Source: a virus | DNA: 64,000 nucleotides | Reading direction: 5' to 3' (one strand) | IMG/VR virus record: IMGVR_UViG_2921643360_000001 | Location: 1-64,000 of that record | Part shown: positions 3,806 through 62,419 of the stretch, one piece after another | Layout: each line of letters opens with the position of its first letter | Position numbering within the stretch: position 1 is the first letter of the stretch | The notes under the pieces: generated by a model | Told to the model about the DNA's origin: nothing | The model's input: the letters and a program-made list of their open reading frames with translations, nothing else | The model's database searches: none | Made by a program: the position numbers and the translations under genes

Positions 3806-4639
3806 TTACTTGCTGAGTTGGATCATCGGCATTGCGCTGCCCATCATGTACTGAGGGTAGTGCCCGTCCCATTTGGCGATCTTCTGTTGCTCGATCAGCG
3901 CGGGGTTTGCCTCAAGCGATTTGCCCGTCAGCTCATTGGCCTTGGCGTTGTTCTCAGCAACCTTCAGCGCTGCCTCAGACTCAACGACGCGCTTTTGCGC
4001 TTCCCACTTCGTCTGGGCAATTTCGTTCTCGACGCGCAATGCGTTCTGCTGGGCGGTGATCTTCGCCTCAATGGCGTCGTTGAACTGCTTGCTAAACTGG
4101 AAGTCAACGATGTTCACCGCCGACACATTCACGCCGATATTCTTGAACCGAGTCAGCAACGCCTCGCGGATCTCCTGACTAACCTGGTCCCGCTTCTGAA
4201 TCAGGTCAGTAGCTTCGTATCGGGCCACGATAGCCTTCACGATGTCATGCACTGCCGGGTCCATGACTTGCGCCCACGGATCGCCGCCGAGATTGGCATA
4301 AACGCCGACTGCCGCAGTCGGAAGAATATTGAAGTTGACGGCGACCTTCATGTCGGCCTGTTGCAGGTCTTTTGAAGAACCCGCGATATCCGATTGCGCC
4401 TTGTACACGCCGATGTAGACCGTGTGCATCGACTGCGAAATCGGCATACGGAAGTGGATGCCGGGCTCGTACACCGTGGCGGATGGAGCGCCGAACGTGG
4501 TCATCACGCCGACGTAGCCCGCTGGCACGGATGCGAACGGCCAGAGGATGAAAAGCGCGATGAGCAATACAACTGCGCCGATAGCGCCGAGGATCAGCTT
4601 GATGCCGCCTCGCGGGACTTCTCTGGATGCAACAGCCAT
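3806..4639 (-). CDS. SPFH / band-7 (prohibitin-like) membrane protein
   Basis: Start moved to the internal ATG at 4639, preceded by SD AAGGAAAA. An N-terminal TM helix (LILGAIGAVVLLIALFILW) is followed by the 'VPAGYVGVMTTFG' SPFH core and a coiled-coil tail. Confidence 0.8.
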   Translation of the reverse strand: MAVASREVPRGGIKLILGAIGAVVLLIALFILWPFASVPAGYVGVMTTFGAPSATVYEPGIHFRMPISQSMHTVYIGVYKAQSDIAGSSKDLQQADMKVAVNFNILPTAAVGVYANLGGDPWAQVMDPAVHDIVKAIVARYEATDLIQKRDQVSQEIREALLTRFKNIGVNVSAVNIVDFQFSKQFNDAIEAKITAQQNALRVENEIAQTKWEAQKRVVESEAALKVAENNAKANELTGKSLEANPALIEQQKIAKWDGHYPQYMMGSAMPMIQLSK

Positions 4640-4795
4640 TTGATTTTCCTTGTGGGTAGAAAAAGAGACCCGAACCGAAGTCCGGGCCTTAAGCGCCGTC
4701 CCAGTGGACCTACTGGCACGGATGGAGAAGAAGTGCCGCTGCCCTTGGTTCATGCGAAACGCGCTAGGCCAATGCATGTGGGCTGCGGCGGTAAG

Positions 4796-5250: not shown

Positions 5251-5904
5251 TCAGGCGGCCATCGCCGCAATTTGTTTGTGGGTTGCGTCGACTTCGAACA
5301 GAAACTGACGCAACGCCACTTCGTACTCTTTGATCAGCGCTTCATCACGCTCCCATCGGAAGACGAACAGTTGCAGCTTCTCCGGCATGTCGGGATCGAA
5401 GCTCACAAAGTCGACGAACTCCGCGCCGGTCACCAGCGTGTTGTGCAGTACCTGATTCATGTACGTCGGCGGGATGCGTTTCTCAATCAGATACTTGAAG
5501 TGCGTTTTGGTCTTCGGGCACTTGCCCTCCCACAGACCAAGGCGACCGCCATCGACCAGAAGTCCATCCGGGCTGCAGCCCGCCATCATGTCTTCGCGGT
5601 AGACGAACCCGCATTGCTCGACCGCGATGCCGGTTTGGATCTCGTATCGCATCCTGGCGAATGGCTCTCGGTCATGCCCGCGCTCAGTGTCTGCGCTCGA
5701 AAACTCATCCGCGCACGATTTGCACAGCAATCGCTCAAGAGCCAGTTGCACGCGGTAATCGGCCCGCGTCGCCGCCTCTCCAGAACCGGACCTTGCCTTG
5801 GCGGTGACTGCTGCTGCGTTTGAGCCCGTAACACGTCCGGCGCGGTCAGCCATCCATTCTGGTGTGTTTTGCGGATGCTCCGAGACGATGAAATTCCGCT
5901 TCAT
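5251..5904 (-). CDS. YqaJ-like viral recombinase exonuclease
   Basis: Start set at the internal ATG 5904 (ATGA overlap with the upstream stop). Motifs 'TPEWMADRAGRVTGS', 'GCSPDG' and 'WEGKCP' fit the YqaJ/lambda-Exo fold. Confidence 0.8.
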   Translation of the reverse strand: MKRNFIVSEHPQNTPEWMADRAGRVTGSNAAAVTAKARSGSGEAATRADYRVQLALERLLCKSCADEFSSADTERGHDREPFARMRYEIQTGIAVEQCGFVYREDMMAGCSPDGLLVDGGRLGLWEGKCPKTKTHFKYLIEKRIPPTYMNQVLHNTLVTGAEFVDFVSFDPDMPEKLQLFVFRWERDEALIKEYEVALRQFLFEVDATHKQIAAMAA

Positions 5905-6713
5905 TGCGCACTCCCTCCGATTTCGCCCTTCTTCTTGTCGGCCAAAACCTTGAACTGGTTCCAGCTTGCGACGTCGCCAATCGCCTCGAACGCTGCGCCA
6001 GCCATTGCGCGAATGCGACGAATGTCGTCGGCGGTGGCTGCGGACGTCAACTGGGTTTCCCACTTCATCCAAGTTTCGTCGGCGCTAGGCTTGCCATCAG
6101 ACCCATGGCCGTCGTCGTCGGCCTGATCCTTGGTGGCTAAGCCAACAGCAGCCAGCAGCGAATAGCGCTCCAGGTAGGTCACGGTCGACGACATCGCCTG
6201 GATGCTGTTCTTCCCTCCAGACTGGTCAAGGCCGGCCTCAAGCGTCGTTTCTTCGCTATGGCCCAGCTTGTGTTTGATGACGCACGTGATGGACATCATT
6301 CCGCCTTCGGTGCGACGCGGAATCCAGCGATGACTGAATCCATAGGTCGCTAGCGACGCAACCACCTTTTCCACTACGTTGCCGATGGTGGCGTGGTCGT
6401 ACGCGGTGACCCCGCTGTTCGTCTTGAACTCGACGTGCTTGTCCTTGAGGATCGTCGGCGGGTTCAGCTTGAACTCAGCCATTGATGCGTCAAACGCCTT
6501 CCTCGCCTCGCGGTCTTCCCACTGCATTTGCATCTGCATGAGCCGTTCAAGACGATCAAGGTCGGCACCACTTTCAAGCGCATATCGCACAAGGTCTGCC
6601 GGCGTGGCGGATGCCGCGGTGACAGCGCGCGTCTGTTGAACTGCCGGTGGCTTTGCTGCGATCGGTTCGGCCATCTCAACATCTGTAATGTCTGCCATGG
6701 TTGCGGTTTGCAT
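5901..6713 (-). CDS. ERF-family single-strand annealing protein
   Basis: 'AYDHATIGNVVEKVVASLATYGFS' and 'QAMSSTVTYLERYSLLAAVGLA' resemble the ERF signature. It is paired with the YqaJ exonuclease and SSB. Confidence 0.7.
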   Translation of the reverse strand: MQTATMADITDVEMAEPIAAKPPAVQQTRAVTAASATPADLVRYALESGADLDRLERLMQMQMQWEDREARKAFDASMAEFKLNPPTILKDKHVEFKTNSGVTAYDHATIGNVVEKVVASLATYGFSHRWIPRRTEGGMMSITCVIKHKLGHSEETTLEAGLDQSGGKNSIQAMSSTVTYLERYSLLAAVGLATKDQADDDGHGSDGKPSADETWMKWETQLTSAATADDIRRIRAMAGAAFEAIGDVASWNQFKVLADKKKGEIGGSAQ

Positions 6714-6724
6714 GCTTGCTCCAG

Positions 6725-7924
6725 TTAGTTAGCGGCGACGTTCGCGGCAGCGAAATACTCATCCGCTGCGGCGTAGTCGAATTTCTTCATCCAGCCCATT
6801 ACGTCGCCGATCTCGACGTCGTATTGGTCGGCCAGCAACTTCACAATCTCCACATCACCGGGGCCGTTTGCGGCGAATTGTTCCTGTTCGCGTCGGATTT
6901 GCTCTTGCACGGCGGCTCGGCGCACTGCCTCGATTCGATCAGCTTCGGCGCGTGCGGCGGCGTCAGCCTCTTCCTTCTTACGGCGTTCTTCGGCGGCTAC
7001 TCGCGCGGCCTCGGCGGCAATCGCTTCCTGCTTCTCACGCTCAACGCGGGCTGCTTCATCCGCTTGGCGTTGGCGTTCGGCGTCAATCTCGGCTTGCTGG
7101 CGAGCCATTTCGGCCTGGTGTTCGCGGACCTGCTTTGCGTGCGCCTCTTGTTCCGCCCGCAACTCGGCGGCGGCCTTATCCTGCTCAGCCTTCACGCGGG
7201 CCGCCTCACGTTCGCGGGCCTCACGTGCCAATTGCTCATCAAGCGCGCGCGCCTGTGCGATTTGCCGATCGCGTTCGGCCTGCGCCCGTCGTTCCGCCTC
7301 CAGCGCTGCACGTTCCTCAGCGAGCTTGGCTTGTGCGGCTTCGTGCGCTTGCTGGGCGATCAGCGCTTCGCAAAGTTTCGCCAGCGCGGCCACTTTGGAC
7401 ATCTCCGCTTCACCGGCAAGCTCGGCAAACTCTTCCAGAGTGATTTCGTGTGTCGACAGTTCGTCAATCGCGCCTTGAATCTCGGCGGCGGACTTACCCA
7501 TCGCAAAGACGATCGAATCCTTGATCTGGTCGATCTTGGCGCGGATGCCGTCGACACGTTGTTTCTCGGCGGCGGCTTTGGCGGCTTTCTCGGCCTCACG
7601 TTCCTTATCCCACGCGTCACGCAACGCAAGCAGCCGGGTTTCTTCTGCCGAAATAATCGCGATGCGGCGCTTTACCTCGGCAATCACTGCCTTCTGAAAC
7701 GCGTTCGCATCCTCACGGGCCACTTCGCCGGTCTTGGTCGTCGCGATTCGCGCATTGCCTAATTCCATCGCCGCGGCGTGACATTGCTGGCGCGCGGCTG
7801 GGTTCTTGATCTCCACAATATCGACGTACTTTTTCGATAGCGCGATCAGGGCCTTCTCGCCTTCGTCGGCGCCAAGCGCAAGCGCTGCGCGCTCAGGCAC
7901 CGTCAATTCATTCTTCTCTTCCAC
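6725..7924 (-). CDS. Coiled-coil A/E/R/K-rich phage protein (recombination-module accessory)
   Basis: 399 aa with long heptad-like charged repeats. Sits next to the annealase, as DUF1351-type genes do. Confidence 0.6.
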   Translation of the reverse strand: MEEKNELTVPERAALALGADEGEKALIALSKKYVDIVEIKNPAARQQCHAAAMELGNARIATTKTGEVAREDANAFQKAVIAEVKRRIAIISAEETRLLALRDAWDKEREAEKAAKAAAEKQRVDGIRAKIDQIKDSIVFAMGKSAAEIQGAIDELSTHEITLEEFAELAGEAEMSKVAALAKLCEALIAQQAHEAAQAKLAEERAALEAERRAQAERDRQIAQARALDEQLAREAREREAARVKAEQDKAAAELRAEQEAHAKQVREHQAEMARQQAEIDAERQRQADEAARVEREKQEAIAAEAARVAAEERRKKEEADAAARAEADRIEAVRRAAVQEQIRREQEQFAANGPGDVEIVKLLADQYDVEIGDVMGWMKKFDYAAADEYFAAANVAAN

Positions 7925-9607: not shown

Positions 9608-9730
9608 CTACCAGAACTTCGCGATGAAGTGAAAGATTGCGTAGACGCCAAGCCCAACGAATCCGAGCCAGAAAAGCGTGAACAGAACCGCCATCAGTTC
9701 AACCGTTGTAAATCCCTTTTGCTTCTTCAT
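9608..9730 (-). CDS. 40-aa prepilin-like peptide (class III signal / N-methylation motif)
   Basis: My translation is MKKQKGFTTVELMAVLFTLFWLGFVGLGVYAIFHFIAKFW. 'KGFTTVE' plus 14 hydrophobic residues fits the type IV pilin N-terminal motif. SD GGAGG lies 5 nt upstream, and the start overlaps the upstream stop (ATGA). Confidence 0.6.
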   Translation of the reverse strand: MKKQKGFTTVELMAVLFTLFWLGFVGLGVYAIFHFIAKFW

Positions 9731-9858
9731 GCTTCCTCCCTCACTCCGATACGAAGCCTTTCATCGCGACGCTCGACCATCGAACCGCCTCGGCAGAGCG
9801 CCCAGGCGATCAGGCAGACGCCAGCCCAGACGGCGGCTATGATTTGAATGGTGGTCAT
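9727..9858 (-). CDS. 43-aa membrane peptide
   Basis: My translation is MTTIQIIAAVWAGVCLIAWALCRGGSMVERRDERLRIGVREEA. It is translationally coupled to both neighbours. Confidence 0.45.
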   Translation of the reverse strand: MTTIQIIAAVWAGVCLIAWALCRGGSMVERRDERLRIGVREEA

Positions 9859-11334: not shown

Positions 11335-11939
11335 GTCTGCTCCAATAGTTGTCCTAACCGCATTGCACAAAATACTGACGGGAGGGCGCTGTTACTGTGC
11401 CGCCGACTTCGGCTAACCTACTGCACCGCCATGCGCATGTTTCAGCGATGGGCTAACGTGGCTCAGTTTCGCGGGTACTCGTCGTTGGCAGGGAGCCCAG
11501 CGGGCCCTTTCGTCAATACTCGTCTCATGGAACGGGGCCGGCGGTTTCCATCTGATCCGGCTTGGGGCGTGGCACTGATTCCCCGCTTGTACGGCATATG
11601 CCGCTCATACCACCTATCACCGGAAGTTCGCGCCATTTAGGTCGTTCGACCGCAGGACTACCAGAGCCGGTTTCGATCTTGCTGCCCGTCACCACCGGGC
11701 TACCCGTTCCATCAAACTGCTTCTTCGGACCCATCCGGCTACACCTGGCAGGCCAGCTCCGGCCTGGGTCCGTCCTACTCCTCCACCAACCGCGCAACTC
11801 ACAAGGTCACGCGACTGCCGCAGGTGCGTTCGCTTTCTACTCGAGCGAACAGCTTTGTTCCGAGCTGCGAAAAGAAACCCCGCAGAATGGTTGGCTTAAC
11901 TACGCCTTTTGCGCACCATGGGCGCGACGTACTGTGAAG

Positions 11940-11951: not shown

Positions 11952-12000
11952 CCTCAGACTGCGAGGTGCGCCGTTGCGCGGTGTTGCTGGTATGGATAGA

Positions 12001-12029
12001 ACGATAGCAAACGCTCTCGAAGAACGCAA
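12001..12029 (-). promoter_or_regulatory. PL early-left promoter (-35 TTGCGT, 17-nt spacer, -10 TATCGT)
   Basis: Same hexamers, spacing and embedded operator as the PR copy at 12979..13007. Confidence 0.6.
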
Positions 12030-12038
12030 GCAAAAGCT
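12006..12038. promoter_or_regulatory. OL operators (AGCAAACGCT, AGCAAAAGCT; 23-bp spacing)
   Basis: Each is one mismatch from the OR motif AGCAAATGCT. The 23-bp phasing is identical to OR sites 2 and 3. Confidence 0.55.
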
Positions 12039-12081: not shown

Positions 12082-12106
12082 ACAAAAAAGCCCGCCGAAG
12101 CGGGCT
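12082..12106 (-). terminator. Rho-independent terminator after the repressor gene
   Basis: Minus strand reads GCCCGCTTCGGCGGGC followed by TTTTTTGTTT, 22 nt after the stop. Confidence 0.8.
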
Positions 12107-12127: not shown

Positions 12128-12910
12128 TCAGGTGCTGCGATACATGCCGGATCCGCGCGGCACGATGGCGCCTACACGATGGATAGACACGATATCGGCC
12201 AGCGACCTCGTGATTGGAGGAATGCCATTGTTGATCGAACCAAGGCTGACTTCCTCATCACGGATCCACAACAATTCTTTGACGACAGCGCTGCCGTCGA
12301 CAAACTTGACCACCACATCATCACCCGGAAGAGCTTCGACGCCGGGTTCCACAACGATGTGTTCGCCACTCTTTATGCGCGGCCTCATGCTATCGCCGCG
12401 CACCTTCAAACCATAGGCCGTTGGGTCTGGTGAATGGATGTTGAGCCATCCATGGCCGTGACCTGGCGGATAGTCGTCGATACTGATAAACCCATCCGGC
12501 CCACCCTGCACTTCCCCGACCACGGCTATATCCCTCCCAGCCTTTAGTTCCAATCGCTCGCCAACGTTTGCTTCTGCTCGTGGCAGGCCTTCGATACTAG
12601 CCCCACCTTTCGGGACCGAAGGCGCAATCATGCCTGACTTTTGCCGGTTCTTCGAGATATCAGTGTCCGCTGAAATGTGGTTGCCGGTGACGCCCAAATC
12701 GAAGTAGAGAGTCGGCAAGCCAAGTTCGGACTCGAGTCGCCGCGCAGCTCCTTCGCCGAACCCGCGTCCCTCCCGATAGTTCGGGTTCAGCAGTTGTCGG
12801 ATCCGAGCCGCATCCTGGTTGTGCAGTCGAGCGAATTCAGCGGCGACCCCTCCCGCCTCCCTGTCCACTAGTTCCTGTAGCCGCTTACGGCGGTGCGCAT
12901 GTATGTCCAT
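12128..12910 (-). CDS. CI-like repressor with LexA/S24 peptidase C-terminal domain
   Basis: Start at ATG 12910 (MDIHAHRRK). The C-terminus 'GLKVRGDSMRPRIKSGEHIVVEP...VVKEL' is the S24 Ser/Lys autocleavage fold. Transcribed divergently from the cro-like gene. Confidence 0.85.
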   Translation of the reverse strand: MDIHAHRRKRLQELVDREAGGVAAEFARLHNQDAARIRQLLNPNYREGRGFGEGAARRLESELGLPTLYFDLGVTGNHISADTDISKNRQKSGMIAPSVPKGGASIEGLPRAEANVGERLELKAGRDIAVVGEVQGGPDGFISIDDYPPGHGHGWLNIHSPDPTAYGLKVRGDSMRPRIKSGEHIVVEPGVEALPGDDVVVKFVDGSAVVKELLWIRDEEVSLGSINNGIPPITRSLADIVSIHRVGAIVPRGSGMYRST

Positions 12911-12932
12911 GGCGGAATTAGAACCGAAAACT

Positions 12933-13002
12933 AGCATTTGCTGTGAAAGCAGAATTTATCATTTCAGCACGCAAATGCTTGCGTTTAGCGGAAGCATTTG
13001 CT
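12933..13002. promoter_or_regulatory. OR operators: three copies of AGCATTTGCT / its complement
   Basis: Sites at 12933..12942, 12970..12979 (complement, 9/10) and 12993..13002, in the 103-bp divergent intergenic region. Confidence 0.7.
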
Positions 13003-13007
13003 ATCGT
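12979..13007 (+). promoter_or_regulatory. PR early-right promoter (-35 TTGCGT, 17 nt, -10 TATCGT)
   Basis: The -10 ends 6 nt before the cro ATG (13014), which implies a leaderless or near-leaderless cro mRNA. Confidence 0.55.
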
Positions 13008-13013
13008 TTGTCC

Positions 13014-21582: not shown

Positions 21583-22199
21583 AGAAACTGATTCTCAAGA
21601 AACTGTTGCGGGTGCATTCCAACGCCTGCTCTACGCCCTACTACCACCTGTCCGGCTACATGCTACGCGACTGGATTCTCGGTTACCGCAGCCCGGATCG
21701 AAACGCCGATAACCCAGCATGGAAAGCGGGCTTTAGCCCGAAGTCGTCGGCGCTCTATCGCTGGATCTGCCGCAACGTCGCTATCCGCGCTCACACGATC
21801 CTGCGCAGCGACAACGACCGTCACTTGCACGACCATCCGTCGTGGTCGCTGTCGATCGTGCTGTCGGGCGGGTATTGGGAAGTGTGCGAGCCGACCGAAT
21901 GGGCGAAGCAATTCGGAGCAACGTACCGCCGAATCGTCGACGGACTCGACCGGGGAATGATCGACAACGAAGACAGTTACGAACTCGACTACGTTGCACG
22001 GTTCGGAATCTTCTGGCGCGGACCCGGCGCGATCGTCCTGCGTCGCGCTACTGACTTCCATCGCCTGATCCTGCCACGTGGCACGGTCGCCAAGTCAATA
22101 TTCGTCATGGGCAAGAAAACCAACAGTTGGGGCTTCCTGACGCCTAACGGCAAGGTCTACTGGCGCACGTATCTCGGTCTCGACAAGGAACAAGCATGA
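21579..22199 (+). CDS. Hypothetical protein with 'HLHDHP' metal-site-like motif
   Basis: 206 aa. 'DRHLHDHPSWSLSIVLSGGYWE' resembles a cupin-type His cluster. Weak call. Confidence 0.5.
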   Translation: MKKLILKKLLRVHSNACSTPYYHLSGYMLRDWILGYRSPDRNADNPAWKAGFSPKSSALYRWICRNVAIRAHTILRSDNDRHLHDHPSWSLSIVLSGGYWEVCEPTEWAKQFGATYRRIVDGLDRGMIDNEDSYELDYVARFGIFWRGPGAIVLRRATDFHRLILPRGTVAKSIFVMGKKTNSWGFLTPNGKVYWRTYLGLDKEQA

Positions 22200-23266
22200 C
22201 TCTCGAACACTCGCAGACAGGCGGAATCGGAGACGTCAATTCCAGCGAGCGCGGCTCCGGAGCGAGATACAACACGGGCAAGGTTGCTATCGAGTTGATC
22301 CCTCTGCGTCTGATCGCGGAACAACTTGAACACGCCACGTCGGAAGACGATCCGCAAAACACGCTTATCGGCGCCCTGTGGAATCTCGCGTTGTTTCAGG
22401 AAGGCGGCGAGGCGCATTACCTGCGCGCGGCAATCGAAAACGTCGGATCGGCATGGGACGAATGCGCGGCGGTATTCGACTACGGGCGGAAGAAATATAG
22501 CAAGCGAGGTGATTGCACATGCAGTGCGGGCGATGCGGTACGACTGAACCTGAGCGGTTCTATCTATACACCTACAAAGGCGCAAACATCCGAAAGTTGC
22601 TCAAGGGATTTTGCAAGCCTTGCTACGACAAAGACCTCAAAGAGCGGAATCCAGGGTATCGGAAGCGACAAACCGAAAACCATCGAAAGTGGCTCGCAAA
22701 CCCTGAGAACAGAGAGCGAGCGCGCGCATCTGAACGGAAGCGATCTGCAAAGCGAAAGCTGGACCCAAATTACAAGGAGCAATCCAAGCTCTACCGAATC
22801 AAGCAGGAATACGGACTCACGCCTGAGCAGTACGACACCCTCATCGCGGCAGGATGCGCAATCTGCGGAAGCTTCGATCGATTGCATGTCGACCATTGCC
22901 ACGACAAAGGACACGTCAGAGCAGCGTTATGCCATTCCTGCAACATTGGCCTTGGATTTGTCGAAAGGCCTAACGGCTGGCTTGAGCGCGCACTCGAATA
23001 CCTGCGGCGTACATCAGACGCCGGGGCACACGGGTAACTGGAACTGGGCCAAGGGAATGGCGTGGAGCGTTCCCCTCGCCTGCGCTGCCCGCCATCTGAT
23101 CTTCGGCATGATGGCCGGTGAAGAACTCGACCCTGAATCGGGCCTGCCCCATCGCGGTCACTTCCTCTGCAATCTCGTGATGCTGCTGACGTTCATGCGG
23201 ACCTATCCGGAGGGAGATGATCGTCCGTCGCAATGGTTGGCTACGCCGACACAGGAAGCCGCATGA
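22196..23266 (+). CDS. dATP/dGTP-diphosphohydrolase-like (DUF5664) protein carrying a 178-codon in-frame insertion
   Basis: The flanks 'NTGKVAIELIP...YGRKKY' and 'GNWNWAKGMAWS...ARHL...DPESGLPHRGHFLCNLVMLL' match the family. The middle is S/T-rich shadow translation of the HNH gene. Confidence 0.6.
   Translation: MTLEHSQTGGIGDVNSSERGSGARYNTGKVAIELIPLRLIAEQLEHATSEDDPQNTLIGALWNLALFQEGGEAHYLRAAIENVGSAWDECAAVFDYGRKKYSKRGDCTCSAGDAVRLNLSGSIYTPTKAQTSESCSRDFASLATTKTSKSGIQGIGSDKPKTIESGSQTLRTESERAHLNGSDLQSESWTQITRSNPSSTESSRNTDSRLSSTTPSSRQDAQSAEASIDCMSTIATTKDTSEQRYAIPATLALDLSKGLTAGLSAHSNTCGVHQTPGHTGNWNWAKGMAWSVPLACAARHLIFGMMAGEELDPESGLPHRGHFLCNLVMLLTFMRTYPEGDDRPSQWLATPTQEAA
22499..23032 (+). mobile_element. 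534-bp homing-endonuclease insertion between the Y and G codons of the host KYG-NW motif
   Basis: Boundaries inferred from where the DUF5664-like sequence stops and resumes. Confidence 0.55.
22519..23037 (+). CDS. Endonuclease VII-type HNH homing endonuclease
   Basis: 'LHVDHCHDKGHVRAALCHSCNIGLG' is the Endo VII/HNH core, with an N-terminal CxxC..CxxC. SD AGGTG lies 7 nt upstream. The ORF is in the -1 frame relative to the host ORF. Confidence 0.8.
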   Translation: MQCGRCGTTEPERFYLYTYKGANIRKLLKGFCKPCYDKDLKERNPGYRKRQTENHRKWLANPENRERARASERKRSAKRKLDPNYKEQSKLYRIKQEYGLTPEQYDTLIAAGCAICGSFDRLHVDHCHDKGHVRAALCHSCNIGLGFVERPNGWLERALEYLRRTSDAGAHG

Positions 23267-60682: not shown

Positions 60683-62419
60683 ATGGGCGCGCCAGACCTC
60701 TCAAACTGGATCTGGCCGGACGCGGATCTACAGCGCCAGCCTCAGGGCGTGGTCACGGTCAACCCTCAGGTTTTCCCCAGCGCGGTACGCTGCTTTGTCG
60801 GTGGCCGCGATGTGTTGACGAACATCAACCTGGCGCTCCCGCTCATCCAGACGCCAGCCGGAACGGGATATACAAACACCAGCAACTCGGCCGCCGCCAA
60901 GCAACTGTCGAGCACTCTAGCCACTTCGTCCGGCGCGGGCGCAGGTGATTTCACGATCATCTGTGTACACAATCTGGCGGCAAGCGGGTCTCAGAATTCG
61001 GTCGCCTGGGCGATTGACGCTAACAAGGCCGCCCCTGGCTTCTATGTCCAGATGAACGCCGACACGTCGGGTGCCTTGGCATCTGGCGATATGACGTTTG
61101 GGGACTTTAATAACGCGGGGATCGCGCTGACCGGGGCGGTTGACGGCAAAAGTCACGCAGTCATTTTCACGCGGCGCGGCACGACGCTCTATGCCTTCAT
61201 GGATGGGGCGCTGAAGTCTACGCTCGCCTCCTACACTTATGCCCTGCCCGCGTCGGGCAATGCGGAGTGGGTGGGAGGGTCAGGGTGGGCTAACACCGGC
61301 GTCGTCGGGGGTGGCGTCCCGCTTATCGCGGTGTCCAACCGGGGGTTGACGATTGCCGAGGGCGTGGCGCTCTCTGCTAACCCCTGGCAGATTTTCAAGC
61401 CGGCGACGATGGCGCTGTATATGCCAGCGGCTGCGGGCGGCGTGACGGTTGGGCTGTCTCAGGTAGCGGGTGCGGGTAGTGTCGGTGCTGTCGGCATCGC
61501 AACGGGGCTCTCGGCAACGGGCGTATCTGCGACTGGTGCGACGGGTTCTGCCGGATATGGCGAAGGTTATGCGATCACTGGTGCGGCGGCCACTGGCAGC
61601 ACGGGTATTGCTACGCCCGCCTCGTCTCCAGTTCTGGCAGGTGCCAGTGCGACAGGCTCGATGGGCACCGCTGCGCCTTCGATCACCGCAGCGCTGACCG
61701 GCGTATCGGGTGCATCGTCTGTCGGTAGCGTAACCCCCGGCACTTCGGCGGCCCTGACGCAAGTCGCCGCAACGGGATCGACGGGCTCGGTAAGTGAGGG
61801 TATTTCACTGGCCCTGTCTGGCGTCGCGGGAACGGGATATGTCGGCACCGTCTCATCTGGCGGCAACATCACGCAGGCGCTGTCCGGGGCCCCTGCTACT
61901 GGCGCTGTCGGCTCCGTATCCCCTTCCCTGTCGCTGGTTAGTTCTGGCGTCTCGGCAACGGGCAGCACGGGCTCTCTCGCTCCGACTCGCGCGCTATCCG
62001 GCGTATCTGGAGCCAGCACGACTGGCGCCGTCACGCAGTCGATATCGCCTACCCTCGTCGGCTCAAGCGCAGCCGGGTCAACAGGCGCTATCTCTGCGGG
62101 CGCGGACAAGAATGCAGCTCTGACTGGTGCTGCGGCAACGTCTTCCGTTGGCAGTGTTGGCACGAACGTCTCGATCGGTCTGGCTGGCATTTCCGCGACG
62201 GCATCGACCGGCGTTCTCGCGTCGAGCCTGACTTATGGACTGGTTGGAAATGCGTCGGCAACAAGCGTTGGATCGATTCTGGCCGTCACTCCAAAATCCA
62301 TCGCGGCCCCGCCTGTCACGTTCCCGATCTACCGAGAGCGGCGCGTGTTCAGCATTCCATCTGAAAGTCGCATATCGCCCGTTCCTGCCGAGAGGCGAAT
62401 CATCAAAGTCGCAGCCTAG
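60683..62419 (+). CDS. LamG/concanavalin-A-like lectin domain protein with about 13 tandem ~20-aa G/S/T/A repeats
   Basis: 'DGKSHAVIFTRRGTTLYAFMDGAL' is a LamG-type core. The C-terminal half consists of 'ALSGVSATGSTGSV...' units. Confidence 0.6.
   Translation: MGAPDLSNWIWPDADLQRQPQGVVTVNPQVFPSAVRCFVGGRDVLTNINLALPLIQTPAGTGYTNTSNSAAAKQLSSTLATSSGAGAGDFTIICVHNLAASGSQNSVAWAIDANKAAPGFYVQMNADTSGALASGDMTFGDFNNAGIALTGAVDGKSHAVIFTRRGTTLYAFMDGALKSTLASYTYALPASGNAEWVGGSGWANTGVVGGGVPLIAVSNRGLTIAEGVALSANPWQIFKPATMALYMPAAAGGVTVGLSQVAGAGSVGAVGIATGLSATGVSATGATGSAGYGEGYAITGAAATGSTGIATPASSPVLAGASATGSMGTAAPSITAALTGVSGASSVGSVTPGTSAALTQVAATGSTGSVSEGISLALSGVAGTGYVGTVSSGGNITQALSGAPATGAVGSVSPSLSLVSSGVSATGSTGSLAPTRALSGVSGASTTGAVTQSISPTLVGSSAAGSTGAISAGADKNAALTGAAATSSVGSVGTNVSIGLAGISATASTGVLASSLTYGLVGNASATSVGSILAVTPKSIAAPPVTFPIYRERRVFSIPSESRISPVPAERRIIKVAA
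61430..62290 (+). repeat. Imperfect tandem coding repeats (~57-60 bp unit)
   Basis: Seen in the translation as xLxGVxATGSxGSVxxxxSx repeated about 13 times. Confidence 0.6.

What the first reader, a model, noticed from the sequence alone, without database searches (positions are those of the whole stretch)
9608..9730. 40-aa phage peptide that is essentially a bare type IV prepilin signal and N-terminal helix
Seen: an unlisted minus-strand ORF (SD GGAGG, ATGA-coupled on its upstream side only) encodes MKKQKGFTTVELMAVLFTLFWLGFVGLGVYAIFHFIAKFW.

Established: 'K-G-F-T-T-V-E' followed by 14 hydrophobic residues satisfies the prokaryotic N-terminal methylation (class III signal) pattern as I recall it: [KRHEQSTAG]-G-[FYLIVM]-[ST]-[LT]-[LIVP]-E-[LIVMFWSTAG](14). 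That motif is cleaved by prepilin peptidase in type IV pilins and T2SS pseudopilins. Real pilins carry a globular domain of more than 100 aa, which is missing here.

Inference: a minimal pilin mimic expressed from the early-left operon could act as a decoy substrate or assembly poison for type IV pili or T2SS. Several phages are known to block twitching as a form of superinfection exclusion, using unrelated proteins. Alternatively it could be a membrane-targeted effector. I know of no described phage function of this form.
Basis: partly seen in the sequence, partly recalled or inferred. Interest (0 to 1): 0.6.

Follow-up and report, generated by a model that had tools for sequence, protein, structure and literature searches.

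The report
Phage mini-prepilin membrane peptide family
A 40-residue early phage gene product that looks like only the signal and membrane helix of a type IV pilin is real and belongs to a widespread, undescribed family of tiny phage membrane peptides, but the family's true signature is a C-terminal HFIAKFW motif, so a role in jamming pili or secretion is plausible and unproven.

Summary
The ORF at 9608-9730 (-) is exactly as described: 40 aa, a GGGAGG Shine-Dalgarno site, and an ATGA overlap with an upstream 43-aa membrane ORF. It lies in the repressor-controlled early-left operon of a lambdoid prophage of Paraburkholderia steynii.

It is not a chance ORF. More than 100 protein clusters of 36-46 aa match it end to end. 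They occur in Burkholderiaceae prophages, T4-like and T5-like Aeromonas phages, and many uncultured phages (GC 24-67%).

In its clade the class III (prepilin) signal is complete and under selection:
- G-1 is present by definition of the motif.
- F/Y+1 and T+2 are present in 100% of members.
- E/D+5 is present in 100% of members.
- Mature length is fixed at 34 or 31 aa.

There is no globular domain; AlphaFold2 predicts one helix.

An unbiased search for that motif found 39 peptides with a prepilin signal and 73 single-pass peptides without one.

The family is absent from Pfam, PHROGs and the literature searched. Interference with type IV pili or T2SS (via the PilD peptidase, the assembly platform, or pilin-sensing kinases) is the leading hypothesis (about 0.4). 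A non-pilus inner-membrane target is nearly as likely.

The parts
9608..9730 (-). Mini-prepilin ORF, 40 codons plus TAG stop
   Evidence: Homologues are aligned end to end.
9735..9740 (-). Shine-Dalgarno GGGAGG, 4 nt before the ATG
   Evidence: Read directly. Comparable purine-rich sites precede homologues.
9713..9730 (-). Leader peptide MKKQKG (net charge +3). The predicted prepilin-peptidase cleavage site is after G6.
   Evidence: Family leaders are mostly 6-7 aa with net charge +2 or +3. Cleavage is inferred, not shown.
9632..9712 (-). Predicted mature N-terminus and transmembrane helix, F7-F33 (F+1, T+2, E+5, then the hydrophobic core with Y at mature position 24)
   Evidence: T+2 is 100% and E/D+5 is 100% conserved in the clade. 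Core conservation has alpha-helical periodicity of 100-110 degrees. AlphaFold2 predicts a helix over residues 9-39, pLDDT 93.
9611..9631 (-). C-terminal family signature H34-F-I-A-K-F-W40, ending the protein
   Evidence: H, F, K and W are invariant in 90 unique mature 34-mers. HFIAKFW occurs in 85 of 123 members. It is the only element shared with the 73 relatives that lack a prepilin signal.
9727..9858 (-). Upstream 43-aa single-pass membrane ORF, translationally overlapped (ATGA). This is a frequent but not obligatory neighbour.
   Evidence: It has its own family of 24 clusters. It is present without the mini-prepilin in L030 and L031, and the mini-prepilin is present without it in L025 and L026.
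12000..12032 (.). Left copy of a 33-nt block that is mirrored on the other side of the repressor gene. It is a candidate oL/pL region that starts the early-left operon.
   Evidence: Inverted repeat I1 pairs 12000-12032 with 12976-13008, 82% complementary. The operator function is inferred.
12089..12106 (-). Terminator-like hairpin plus T-run, directly after the repressor gene
   Evidence: 7-bp stem with 6 GC pairs, followed by TTTTTTGTTTC.
12128..12937 (-). Repressor of the cI/LexA type (Peptidase_S24)
   Evidence: E 1.1e-13.
5251..6713 (-). Downstream early-left recombination genes (ERF 5901-6713, YqaJ exonuclease 5251-6072). They show the operon context.
   Evidence: The same order, repressor then mini-prepilin then ERF/YqaJ, is seen in L019, L020 and L025.

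Best explanation
The ORF is a genuine accessory early gene of a temperate Paraburkholderia phage. It encodes a bitopic inner-membrane peptide (N-terminus in, C-terminus out).

Shown:
- It belongs to an undescribed family of 31-46-aa phage peptides. Each has one transmembrane helix and ends in G-G-x-x-[YW]-V-A-x-H-F-I-[AS]-K-F-W-COOH.
- The window's copy is in the branch (about one third of the family) whose N-terminus is a complete type IVa-pilin-like class III signal.
- It has no alpha1C helix and no globular head.

Inferred:
- The peptide is inserted through SRP/Sec.
- The host prepilin peptidase (PilD/GspO) cuts after G6 and N-methylates F7.
- The resulting 34-residue peptide copies pilin alpha1N (F1, T2, E5, Y24) and engages the type IV filament machinery.
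- It could act by occupying or slowing PilD, by docking through E5 at the assembly platform as a headless subunit held back by its aromatic, basic C-terminal anchor, or by imitating a full membrane pool of pilin to pilin-sensing kinases.
- The outcome would be rapid loss of type IV pili and/or type II secretion early in infection. This would exclude pilus-dependent phages or stop progeny from adsorbing to doomed cells.
For: Gene reality and family:
- 52 end-to-end hits at E <= 1e-3 among 1.84 billion representatives.
- 109 clusters with a profile search.
- Members occur in Aeromonas phages vB_AdhS_TS3 (T5-like, 7.5 kb from the left end, unannotated) and Ahp1 (T4-like).
- Members occur in Burkholderia and Paraburkholderia prophages, always between the repressor and ERF/YqaJ.

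Class III signal:
- 116 of 123 members have G-[FYV]-T-x-x-[ED]. Leaders are mostly 6-7 aa with net charge +2 or +3. Mature length is 34 aa in 90 members and 31 aa in 16.
- T+2 is 100% and E+5 is 98% conserved while the core varies.
- A buried acidic residue is costly, and it is almost absent in the signal-less relatives (9 of 72 against 39 of 40). E5 is therefore selected.
- The known roles of E5 are specific to type IV filaments: a salt bridge to the N-terminus of the neighbouring subunit, and docking into the growing filament (PMC10191384).
- Profile hits in the PDB are exclusively type IV major pilins, over the leader plus alpha1N.

Conserved helical face: small residues at positions 17, 20, 21 and 31 suggest helix-helix packing.

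Precedents:
- A 17-aa pilin transmembrane peptide binds TM1 of the kinase PleC and cuts susceptibility to the pilus phage phiCbK by 77% (PMC7196804).
- Merely slowed PilD processing gives resistance to pilus phages, a T2SS defect, and PilS-mediated shut-off of pilA (PMC13170266).
- Phage FimU and truncated phage PilA have been described (PMC12952977).
Against: - No experiment bears on processing or on the target.
- An unbiased search by the C-terminal motif alone shows that 73 of 112 family members have no class III signal yet keep the same C-terminal 15 residues. The shared activity of the family probably does not need PilD or pilin mimicry.
- The C-terminal motif has no counterpart in pilins.
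- The window's own sequence is below Pfam's N_methyl cut-off.
- The host's pilus and T2SS genes could not be inspected.
- No pilus-related gene is linked to the peptide in any locus examined.
Confidence: 0.4

Rival explanations
1. The family is a C-terminal-motif effector with a target outside the type IV filament systems. The TM helix plus HFI[AS]KFW-COOH would bind or perturb some other conserved inner-membrane component. Candidates are a DNA-entry route used by superinfecting phages, a transporter, a sensor, or the division or Sec machinery. In this branch the class III signal would serve only as an insertion, orientation and N-terminal trimming device borrowed from a pilin gene.
For: - 65% of motif-bearing relatives lack any prepilin signal but share G-G-x-x-[YW]-[VI]-A-x-HFI[AS]KFW and the same TM length.
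- The invariant residues are in the C-terminal motif.
- The family spans phages with GC 24-67%, which implies a very widely conserved target.
- All contexts are early, recombination or replication regions typical of host-takeover and exclusion genes.
- From general knowledge, small single-pass peptides commonly regulate larger membrane proteins; MgrB acting on PhoQ is an example.
Against: It does not explain why a charged E+5 and an invariant T+2 are kept in the signal-bearing clade. From general knowledge (Strom and Lory 1991), cleavage by PilD needs only G-1. Simple basic N-termini evidently suffice for insertion in the other branch.
Confidence: 0.35
2. The peptide is a pore-forming or depolarising peptide, like a viroporin or holin. 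It would oligomerise through the small-residue face of the helix, with the conserved His and Lys near the periplasmic end lining or gating a channel. Depolarisation would block injection by other phages or help time the infection.
For: - There is a conserved helical stripe of small residues, and H and K are invariant at spacing i, i+4.
- One signal-less member has a very weak hit to a holin PHROG (E 0.5).
- The gene is early in virulent phages.
Against: - The gene lies in early operons, far from late and lysis genes.
- There is no significant similarity to any holin family.
- A constitutively depolarising early protein would harm phage replication.
Confidence: 0.1
3. The peptide is a structural pilin substitute, incorporated into the host pilus or pseudopilus as a functional subunit in the way phage FimU is.
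For: It has a complete class III signal with E5. [quoted passage not shown]
Against: - The mature peptide is 34 aa and forms a single helix. It has no alpha1C helix or head to make the lateral contacts that define pilins (PMC10191384).
- Even the shortest known pilins are larger: Geobacter PilA-N is 61 aa (PDB chain length) and mature Caulobacter PilA is 45 aa.
- The operon is repressed in the lysogen.
Confidence: 0.04
4. The ORF is a chance open reading frame with no product.
For: It is short and overlaps a 137-aa ORF on the opposite strand. The exact sequence is not in the protein collection.
Against: - More than 100 homologous clusters of the same length occur across GC 24-67%, with invariant residues and Shine-Dalgarno sites.
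- The motif is expected 0.0 times per shuffled window.
Confidence: 0.01

Closest known systems
N-terminus of type IVa major pilins and T2SS pseudopilins (PilA, PpdD, MshA, GspG): the class III signal plus alpha1N
   Same: It shares the short basic leader ending in Gly, F/Y+1, T+2, E+5, about 22 hydrophobic residues and an aromatic residue at mature position 24. The family profile hits only such pilins in the PDB, and hits PF07963 and TIGR02532.
   Different: The protein stops at mature residue 34. It has no alpha1C, no globular head and no Pro22. Its last seven residues, HFIAKFW, have no counterpart in pilins.
Truncated phage PilA (about 60 aa) in six virulent Pseudomonas phages, and phage FimU (Sztanko et al. 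2026, PMC12952977)
   Same: These are phage-encoded proteins derived from or resembling type IV pilins. They are proposed, and for FimU shown, to protect against pilus-dependent phages. The truncated form is also found in virulent phages.
   Different: P-FimU is a full-length minor pilin that is incorporated without disturbing the pilus. The truncated P-PilA is about 60 aa and was described as an N-terminal PilA fragment. The present family is 40 aa, has its own C-terminal signature, and has many relatives without any pilin signal. I could not retrieve the P-PilA sequences to compare them.
Caulobacter CIP peptide, the 17-aa transmembrane helix of PilA (Del Medico et al. 2020, PMC7196804), and PilA-PilS intramembrane sensing in P. 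aeruginosa
   Same: A bare pilin N-terminal helix in the inner membrane is biologically active on its own. It binds a kinase TM helix and lowers pilus function and pilus-phage susceptibility. A backlog of pilin in the membrane shuts off pilA through PilS.
   Different: Those are host pilins or synthetic fragments of type IVc or IVa pilins, not phage genes. No kinase interaction has been tested for the phage peptide.
PfsE of filamentous phage Pf4 (PMC8764522)
   Same: It is a very small phage inner-membrane peptide that blocks type IV pili and causes superinfection exclusion (listed).
   Different: From the title and abstract and from general knowledge, PfsE has no class III signal and acts on PilC. 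It was not compared by sequence here.
Geobacter PilA-N and Flp/Tad pilins, the shortest natural pilins
   Same: These are minimal pilins consisting largely of the alpha1 helix. The family profile matches Geobacter PilA-N over the leader and alpha1N.
   Different: They are 45-61 aa when mature and they polymerise. Flp pilins use a G/xxxxEY signal; only 1 of 60 members gave a weak Flp_Fap hit.

Membership tests
Class III signal peptide (prepilin-type N-terminal cleavage/methylation motif; PF07963, TIGR02532, PROSITE-type pattern) | Hydrophilic, basic leader ending in Gly or Ala | tested here: met
   The leader is MKKQKG, net charge +3. Family leaders are mostly 6-7 aa with net charge +2 or +3. 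The definition is taken from PMC10191384.
Class III signal peptide (prepilin-type N-terminal cleavage/methylation motif; PF07963, TIGR02532, PROSITE-type pattern) | A stretch of 20-25 mainly hydrophobic residues after the cleavage site, with Glu at +5 | tested here: met
   The sequence is F-T-T-V-E followed by a hydrophobic run to residue 33. The PROSITE-type pattern is matched once in the window, against 0 matches in 300 shuffles.
Class III signal peptide (prepilin-type N-terminal cleavage/methylation motif; PF07963, TIGR02532, PROSITE-type pattern) | Score at or above the curated model cut-off | tested here: inconclusive
   The window sequence scores 16.5 bits on PF07963, below the cut-off of 21.2, and has no TIGR02532 hit at E <= 10. 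Of 60 relatives, 50 hit PF07963 and 41 hit TIGR02532 at E <= 0.01, with best E values of 3e-11 and 2e-9.
Class III signal peptide (prepilin-type N-terminal cleavage/methylation motif; PF07963, TIGR02532, PROSITE-type pattern) | Cleavage and N-methylation by a prepilin peptidase | not testable with these tools
   This needs expression with and without PilD/GspO, plus mass spectrometry.
Type IV pilin / pseudopilin (structural subunit) | 'Lollipop' architecture: an alpha1 helix of about 50 residues whose C-terminal half packs on a globular head | tested here: not met
   The predicted mature peptide is 34 aa. AlphaFold2 gives a single helix over residues 9-39 with pLDDT 93. The definition is taken from PMC10191384.
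Type IV pilin / pseudopilin (structural subunit) | Polymerises into a filament assembled by a type IV filament machinery | not testable with these tools
   No assay was possible. No pilus machinery genes are linked to the peptide in any of the loci read.
HFIAKFW small phage membrane peptides (family defined here; not in Pfam, PHROGs or NCBIfam) | The protein ends in H-F-[ILV]-[AS]-K-F-W-COOH, preceded by G-rich-x-x-[YW]-[VI]-A-x | tested here: met
   The window sequence ends ...GLGVYAIFHFIAKFW*.
HFIAKFW small phage membrane peptides (family defined here; not in Pfam, PHROGs or NCBIfam) | A 31-46-aa protein with one TM helix of about 23 residues between a basic N-terminus and the motif | tested here: met
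   The window protein is 40 aa. The length distribution peaks at 40-41 aa.
HFIAKFW small phage membrane peptides (family defined here; not in Pfam, PHROGs or NCBIfam) | Encoded in early, recombination or replication regions of phage genomes | tested here: met
   In the window the gene lies between the S24 repressor and ERF/YqaJ. The same holds in L019, L020 and L025. Signal-less members lie next to SSB, RecT/YqaJ or AAA ATPase genes, judged from N-terminal sequences and not confirmed by a profile search.
Phage-encoded pilins of the P-FimU / P-PilA type (PMC12952977) | A full pilin fold superimposable on the host FimU or PilA | tested here: not met
   The model is a single helix with no head.
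Phage-encoded pilins of the P-FimU / P-PilA type (PMC12952977) | Expressed from the prophage and protective in the lysogen | tested here: inconclusive
   The gene lies about 2.3 kb downstream of a candidate oL/pL block, behind the repressor's terminator. This argues for repression in the lysogen. No expression data are available.
Flp/Tad (type IVc) pilins | A G/xxxxEY processing motif and a match to the Flp_Fap model | tested here: not met
   The motif here is G/FTxxEL. Only 1 of 60 members gave a Flp_Fap hit, at E 0.0076.

The most novel reading that the evidence does not exclude
The signal-bearing branch of this family is a phage-encoded substrate mimic of type IV pilins. It would be processed by PilD to a 34-residue N-methyl-Phe peptide. 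That peptide would dock through E5 at the pilus or pseudopilus assembly site, or on PilD or a pilin-sensing kinase, while its aromatic, basic C-terminal anchor keeps it in the membrane. It would thereby switch off every type IV filament system of the cell (pili, T2SS, competence pili) within minutes of infection. The signal-less branch would be a natural control in which the same anchor is delivered to the membrane without pilin mimicry.
Probability: 0.3. Interest if true: 0.8.

Novelty: new variant of a known kind. Interest (0 to 1): 0.62.

Why it matters
If the peptide is processed by PilD and blocks pili or type II secretion, it would be the smallest known natural pilin-like molecule. It would also be a ready-made, genetically encoded inhibitor of type IV filament systems, which are major virulence factors and phage receptors.

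Its natural relatives without the signal offer a built-in comparison for separating pilin mimicry from the function of the C-terminal motif.

Independently of mechanism, the work defines a widespread family of about 40-residue early phage membrane peptides. Gene callers often miss them: the copy in Aeromonas phage TS3 is unannotated, and the window's exact product is on record nowhere in the assembly collection searched. Annotation pipelines also mislabel members as PulG, PilE, FimT or 'type II secretion system protein'.

Tried and rejected
**Searches that found nothing**
- A word-indexed search with the single peptide found no homologue. An exact look-up found nothing. Megablast of the neighbourhood against cultured phages found nothing.
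I got round this with a two-row self-alignment.
- The one genome-contig scan returned only ordinary full-length pilins, L003-L005.
- tblastn against plasmids returned only ordinary pilin and GspG genes. None matched through to the C-terminus.
- tblastn with a PilA N-terminus, meant to recover the published truncated phage PilA, returned only Acinetobacter records. The paper's supplement is not held.
- Literature searches for the motif strings and for mini-pilin, decoy or mimic terms found no description of this family. The Fc02 'overlapping exclusion genes' paper is unrelated.

**Ideas rejected**
- An obligatory two-gene module with the upstream TM ORF: each gene occurs without the other.
- A lysis function: the location is early, and there is no significant similarity to holin families.

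**Side lead left unresolved**
- The conserved non-coding stretch in the early-left leader has no Rfam hit. It folds no better than shuffled sequence (z = -1.25), despite four compensatory pairs in a two-sequence alignment.

**Not used**
- A structure search was not run, because a single helix gives meaningless fold matches.
Full report
**1. Observation**

Window 9608-9730 on the minus strand is an ATG-to-TAG ORF of 40 codons. It encodes MKKQKGFTTVELMAVLFTLFWLGFVGLGVYAIFHFIAKFW.
- GGGAGG lies at 9740-9735, four bases before the ATG.
- The TGA stop of an upstream 43-aa ORF (9727-9858) overlaps the start as ATGA.
- The next ORF downstream begins 17 nt after the stop.

It was matched zero times in 300 shuffles.

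The single sequence is a sub-threshold match to Pfam N_methyl (16.5 bits against a cut-off of 21.2, E 0.006). It matches PpdD-type pilin models only weakly.

**2. Where it sits**

The window is contig MWML01000013.1 of Paraburkholderia steynii GCA_004334975.1. The left third is a lambdoid prophage arm on the minus strand:
- integrase, 481-1554
- an SPFH protein
- YqaJ exonuclease, 5251-6072
- ERF recombinase, 5901-6713
- a run of small ORFs that includes the peptide
- an S24 (cI/LexA-type) repressor, 12128-12937

The repressor gene is followed at once by a hairpin plus T-run (12106-12089). A 33-nt block at 12000-12032 is repeated in mirror orientation at 12976-13008, on the other side of the repressor gene. 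I read these as the oL and oR regions. This is an inference from lambdoid architecture.

The peptide gene is therefore about 2.3 kb into a repressor-controlled early-left operon. It is expected to be made after infection or induction rather than in the lysogen. The right arm carries helicases and NinG.

**3. It is a conserved gene**

The word-indexed search with the single peptide found nothing. A full HMMER pass over 1.84 billion cluster representatives gave 52 hits at E <= 1e-3. Nearly all are 36-44 aa and aligned from residue 1 to 40. A profile of 60 members found 109 clusters.

Sources name some of them 'prepilin-type N-terminal cleavage/methylation domain-containing protein', 'type II secretion system protein', PulG, PilE, FimT or 'hypothetical'. 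None is characterised.

Cultured phages with a copy:
- Aeromonas phage vB_AdhS_TS3 (Demerecviridae). The gene is 7.5 kb from the left end, in a gap between annotated genes.
- Aeromonas phage Ahp1_CNU-2021 (Straboviridae), protein QIW87140.1.

In Burkholderia gladioli, Paraburkholderia sp. BR10872, P. panacisoli and related metagenomic prophages, the gene always lies between the repressor and ERF/YqaJ. In large uncultured phages it sits among small early-type ORFs.

The flanking genes are not conserved. Closely related prophages exist with and without the gene (L029 against L030 and L031). It therefore behaves as an accessory cassette.

**4. Anatomy of the signal-bearing clade**

In 123 aligned members:
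- 116 have G-[FYV]-T-x-x-[ED].
- The leader is mostly 6-7 residues with net charge +2 or +3.
- The predicted mature length is 34 aa in 90 members and 31 aa in 16.

In 90 unique mature 34-mers:
- T2, H28, F29, K32 and W34 are invariant.
- E5 is present in 88 of 90 and D in the other two.
- F or Y at position 1 is present in 87 of 90.
- Y or W at position 24 is present in 79 of 90.
- The core is variable, but its conservation has alpha-helical periodicity (peak at 100-110 degrees). Small residues are enriched at positions 17, 20, 21, 22 and 31.

This pattern is what one expects of a helix that packs against another helix. That reading is an inference.

AlphaFold2 on the alignment gives one continuous helix, residues 9-39, with pLDDT 93. 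The family profile hits only type IV major pilins in the PDB (MshA, Geobacter PilA-N, PilA, PpdD, PilE). The hits cover only the leader and alpha1N, never the C-terminal motif. Of 60 members, 50 hit PF07963 and 41 hit TIGR02532.

By the definition in Pelicic's review, the N-terminus is a bona fide class III signal. That definition is a hydrophilic leader ending in Gly or Ala, then 20-25 hydrophobic residues, often with Glu5. By the same review, the peptide is not a pilin, because it lacks alpha1C and the head.

**5. The twist: the family is defined by its C-terminus**

The hit lists above were seeded with a sequence that has the signal, so they are biased towards it. I therefore searched the viral and metagenome collections for DNA encoding only H-F-I-[AS]-K-F-W followed by a stop codon. 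I then read the ORFs upstream.

Among 112 distinct ORFs with a transmembrane-like stretch before the motif:

| Collection | With class III signal | Without |
|---|---|---|
| Viral | 8 | 12 |
| Metagenome | 31 | 61 |
| Total | 39 | 73 |

Ten further hits were short or chance matches.

The signal-less members are also 31-45 aa. They have a basic N-terminus and about 23 hydrophobic residues. Beyond the seven residues forced by the search, they share the preceding G-G-x-x-[YW]-[VI]-A-x. The two groups are therefore homologous over their last 15 residues or so.

The signal-less members almost never carry an acidic residue in the helix (9 of 72, against 39 of 40 in the signal-bearing group). They occur in phage contigs with GC 24-67%. 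Their neighbours look like SSB, RecT/YqaJ, AAA ATPase or phosphatase genes, judged from N-terminal sequences and not from a profile search.

Neither group matches any Pfam, PHROG or NCBIfam family apart from the pilin signal. The motif strings occur in none of the 8 million papers searched.

**6. How it most likely works**

Shown: this is a conserved, early, accessory phage gene for a single-helix membrane peptide with two conserved ends.

Inferred from the established biology of class III signals:
- SRP/Sec insertion, with the basic leader in the cytoplasm and the C-terminus at the periplasmic face.
- Cleavage after G6 and N-methylation by the host prepilin peptidase.

The key argument for a connection to type IV filaments concerns E5 and T2. 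The clade keeps a charged Glu and an invariant Thr inside the membrane, while its signal-less cousins do without them. From general knowledge (Strom and Lory 1991), cleavage needs only Gly-1. The documented roles of Glu5 are the salt bridge to the N-terminus of the neighbouring subunit and docking into the growing filament.

Three non-exclusive routes are physiologically credible:
- **(a) Competing for or clogging PilD.** A PilD variant that merely slows processing makes P. aeruginosa resistant to pilus phages, impairs T2SS, and shuts off pilA through PilS.
- **(b) Acting as a headless subunit.** It would dock at the platform but be held in the bilayer by its aromatic, basic C-terminus.
- **(c) Imitating a full membrane pool of pilin to sensor kinases.** A 17-aa pilin helix binds PleC TM1 in Caulobacter and lowers phiCbK susceptibility by 77%. 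Leader-plus-17-aa, 25-aa and 37-aa truncations of PilA are active in vivo.

The benefit to a phage in lytic growth would be exclusion of pilus-dependent competitors, or protection of progeny from adsorbing to infected cells. This is an inference. Sztanko et al. make the same argument for pilin-like genes in virulent phages.

I give the type IV filament reading about 0.4.

**7. Rivals**

- **Non-pilus target.** The C-terminal motif is what the whole family shares, and two thirds of the family lacks the signal. The core activity may therefore be directed at something else in the inner membrane, with the prepilin signal as a borrowed insertion and trimming module (about 0.35). This rival explains the distribution better. 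It explains the selected E5 and T2 worse.
- **Pore or depolarising peptide** (about 0.1). It fits the small-residue stripe and the invariant His and Lys, but not the early location or the lack of holin similarity.
- **True structural pilin substitute** of the P-FimU kind. This is unlikely for a 34-residue helix (about 0.04).
- **Chance ORF.** Excluded.

**8. Comparison with what is known, and novelty**

The sequence works like, and probably derives from, the 5' end of a type IVa pilin or pseudopilin gene. It fails the structural definition of a pilin.

The closest phage precedents are P-FimU and the untested 60-aa truncated P-PilA families (PMC12952977), and PfsE as a small-peptide pilus inhibitor. 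None shares the HFIAKFW signature as far as I could test.

The family itself appears undescribed. I rate it a new variant of a known kind, namely phage-encoded pilin-like or small membrane host-takeover peptides. It is not categorically new, because no new mechanism has been demonstrated.

**9. What remains open**

Processing, target, timing of expression, and whether the signal was gained or lost during the family's evolution all remain open. The decisive experiments and computations are listed separately.

Noticed in passing
window 9727-9858 (-); also L020 5882-6004, L006 5879-6004, L019 about 5885-6004, L029 2501-2626: A second family of roughly 40-aa single-pass peptides (for example MNIYHWIALLFVADLALILFVRGADERRQ...) sits directly upstream of the mini-prepilin, with a 4-nt start/stop overlap, in several Paraburkholderia-type prophages. 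It comprises 24 clusters, all named 'hypothetical'. It also occurs without the mini-prepilin (L030, L031).
   Followed up: partly
window 11525-11723 (-) and 11787-11864 (-): There are conserved non-coding stretches in the leader of the early-left operon. One is 81-84% identical to L025 6148-6302, where it lies just after the mini-prepilin gene. The other is 91% identical to L020 4728-4805. A two-sequence alignment folds into a multi-stem structure with 4 compensatory pairs, but the fold z-score is only -1.25 and there is no Rfam hit. It could be an antitermination-type RNA or a small RNA.
   Followed up: partly
window 12000-12032 and 12976-13008: A 33-nt block is repeated in mirror orientation on both sides of the repressor gene (82% complementary). 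It contains ...GCTATCGTT.../...AACGATAGC... half-sites. These are candidate oL and oR operators.
   Followed up: partly
L047 / L013 (IMGVR_UViG_3300025030_000039, 429 kb, GC 24-25%): A very large, very AT-rich phage contig carries a family member with the C-terminal motif but no prepilin signal (…KTSKKFIIAAITFLIIWLSVIGLIIYIAFHFISKFW). This shows how far the family reaches.
   Followed up: partly
L016 4001-4114 (Aeromonas phage vB_AdhS_TS3, OP820700.1 7483-7596): The family member in this cultured T5-like phage lies in an unannotated gap between two CDSs, within the first 6.5% of the genome. In T5-like phages that region holds the pre-early genes, a point from general knowledge.
   Followed up: no
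window 22196-23266 (+): A 356-aa protein has a C-terminal match to the N-terminal domain of dATP/dGTP diphosphohydrolase (PF18909, E 3.6e-18), in the early-right region. From general knowledge, this domain is known from phages that modify their DNA bases.
   Followed up: no
window 3806-4777 (-) and 6725-7924 (-): The early-left operon also encodes an SPFH/Band 7 membrane-scaffold protein. It further encodes a 399-aa protein very rich in Ala, Glu and Arg, with no Pfam match, that is about 50% identical in related prophages (L006, L007, L008) and sits just upstream of ERF.
   Followed up: no
window 60683-62419 (+) and neighbours (L018): Genes near the right end of the window still look phage-like: the neighbour of the 578-aa protein hits Pfam Gp77. 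The prophage, or a second one, may therefore extend to the end of the window.
   Followed up: no
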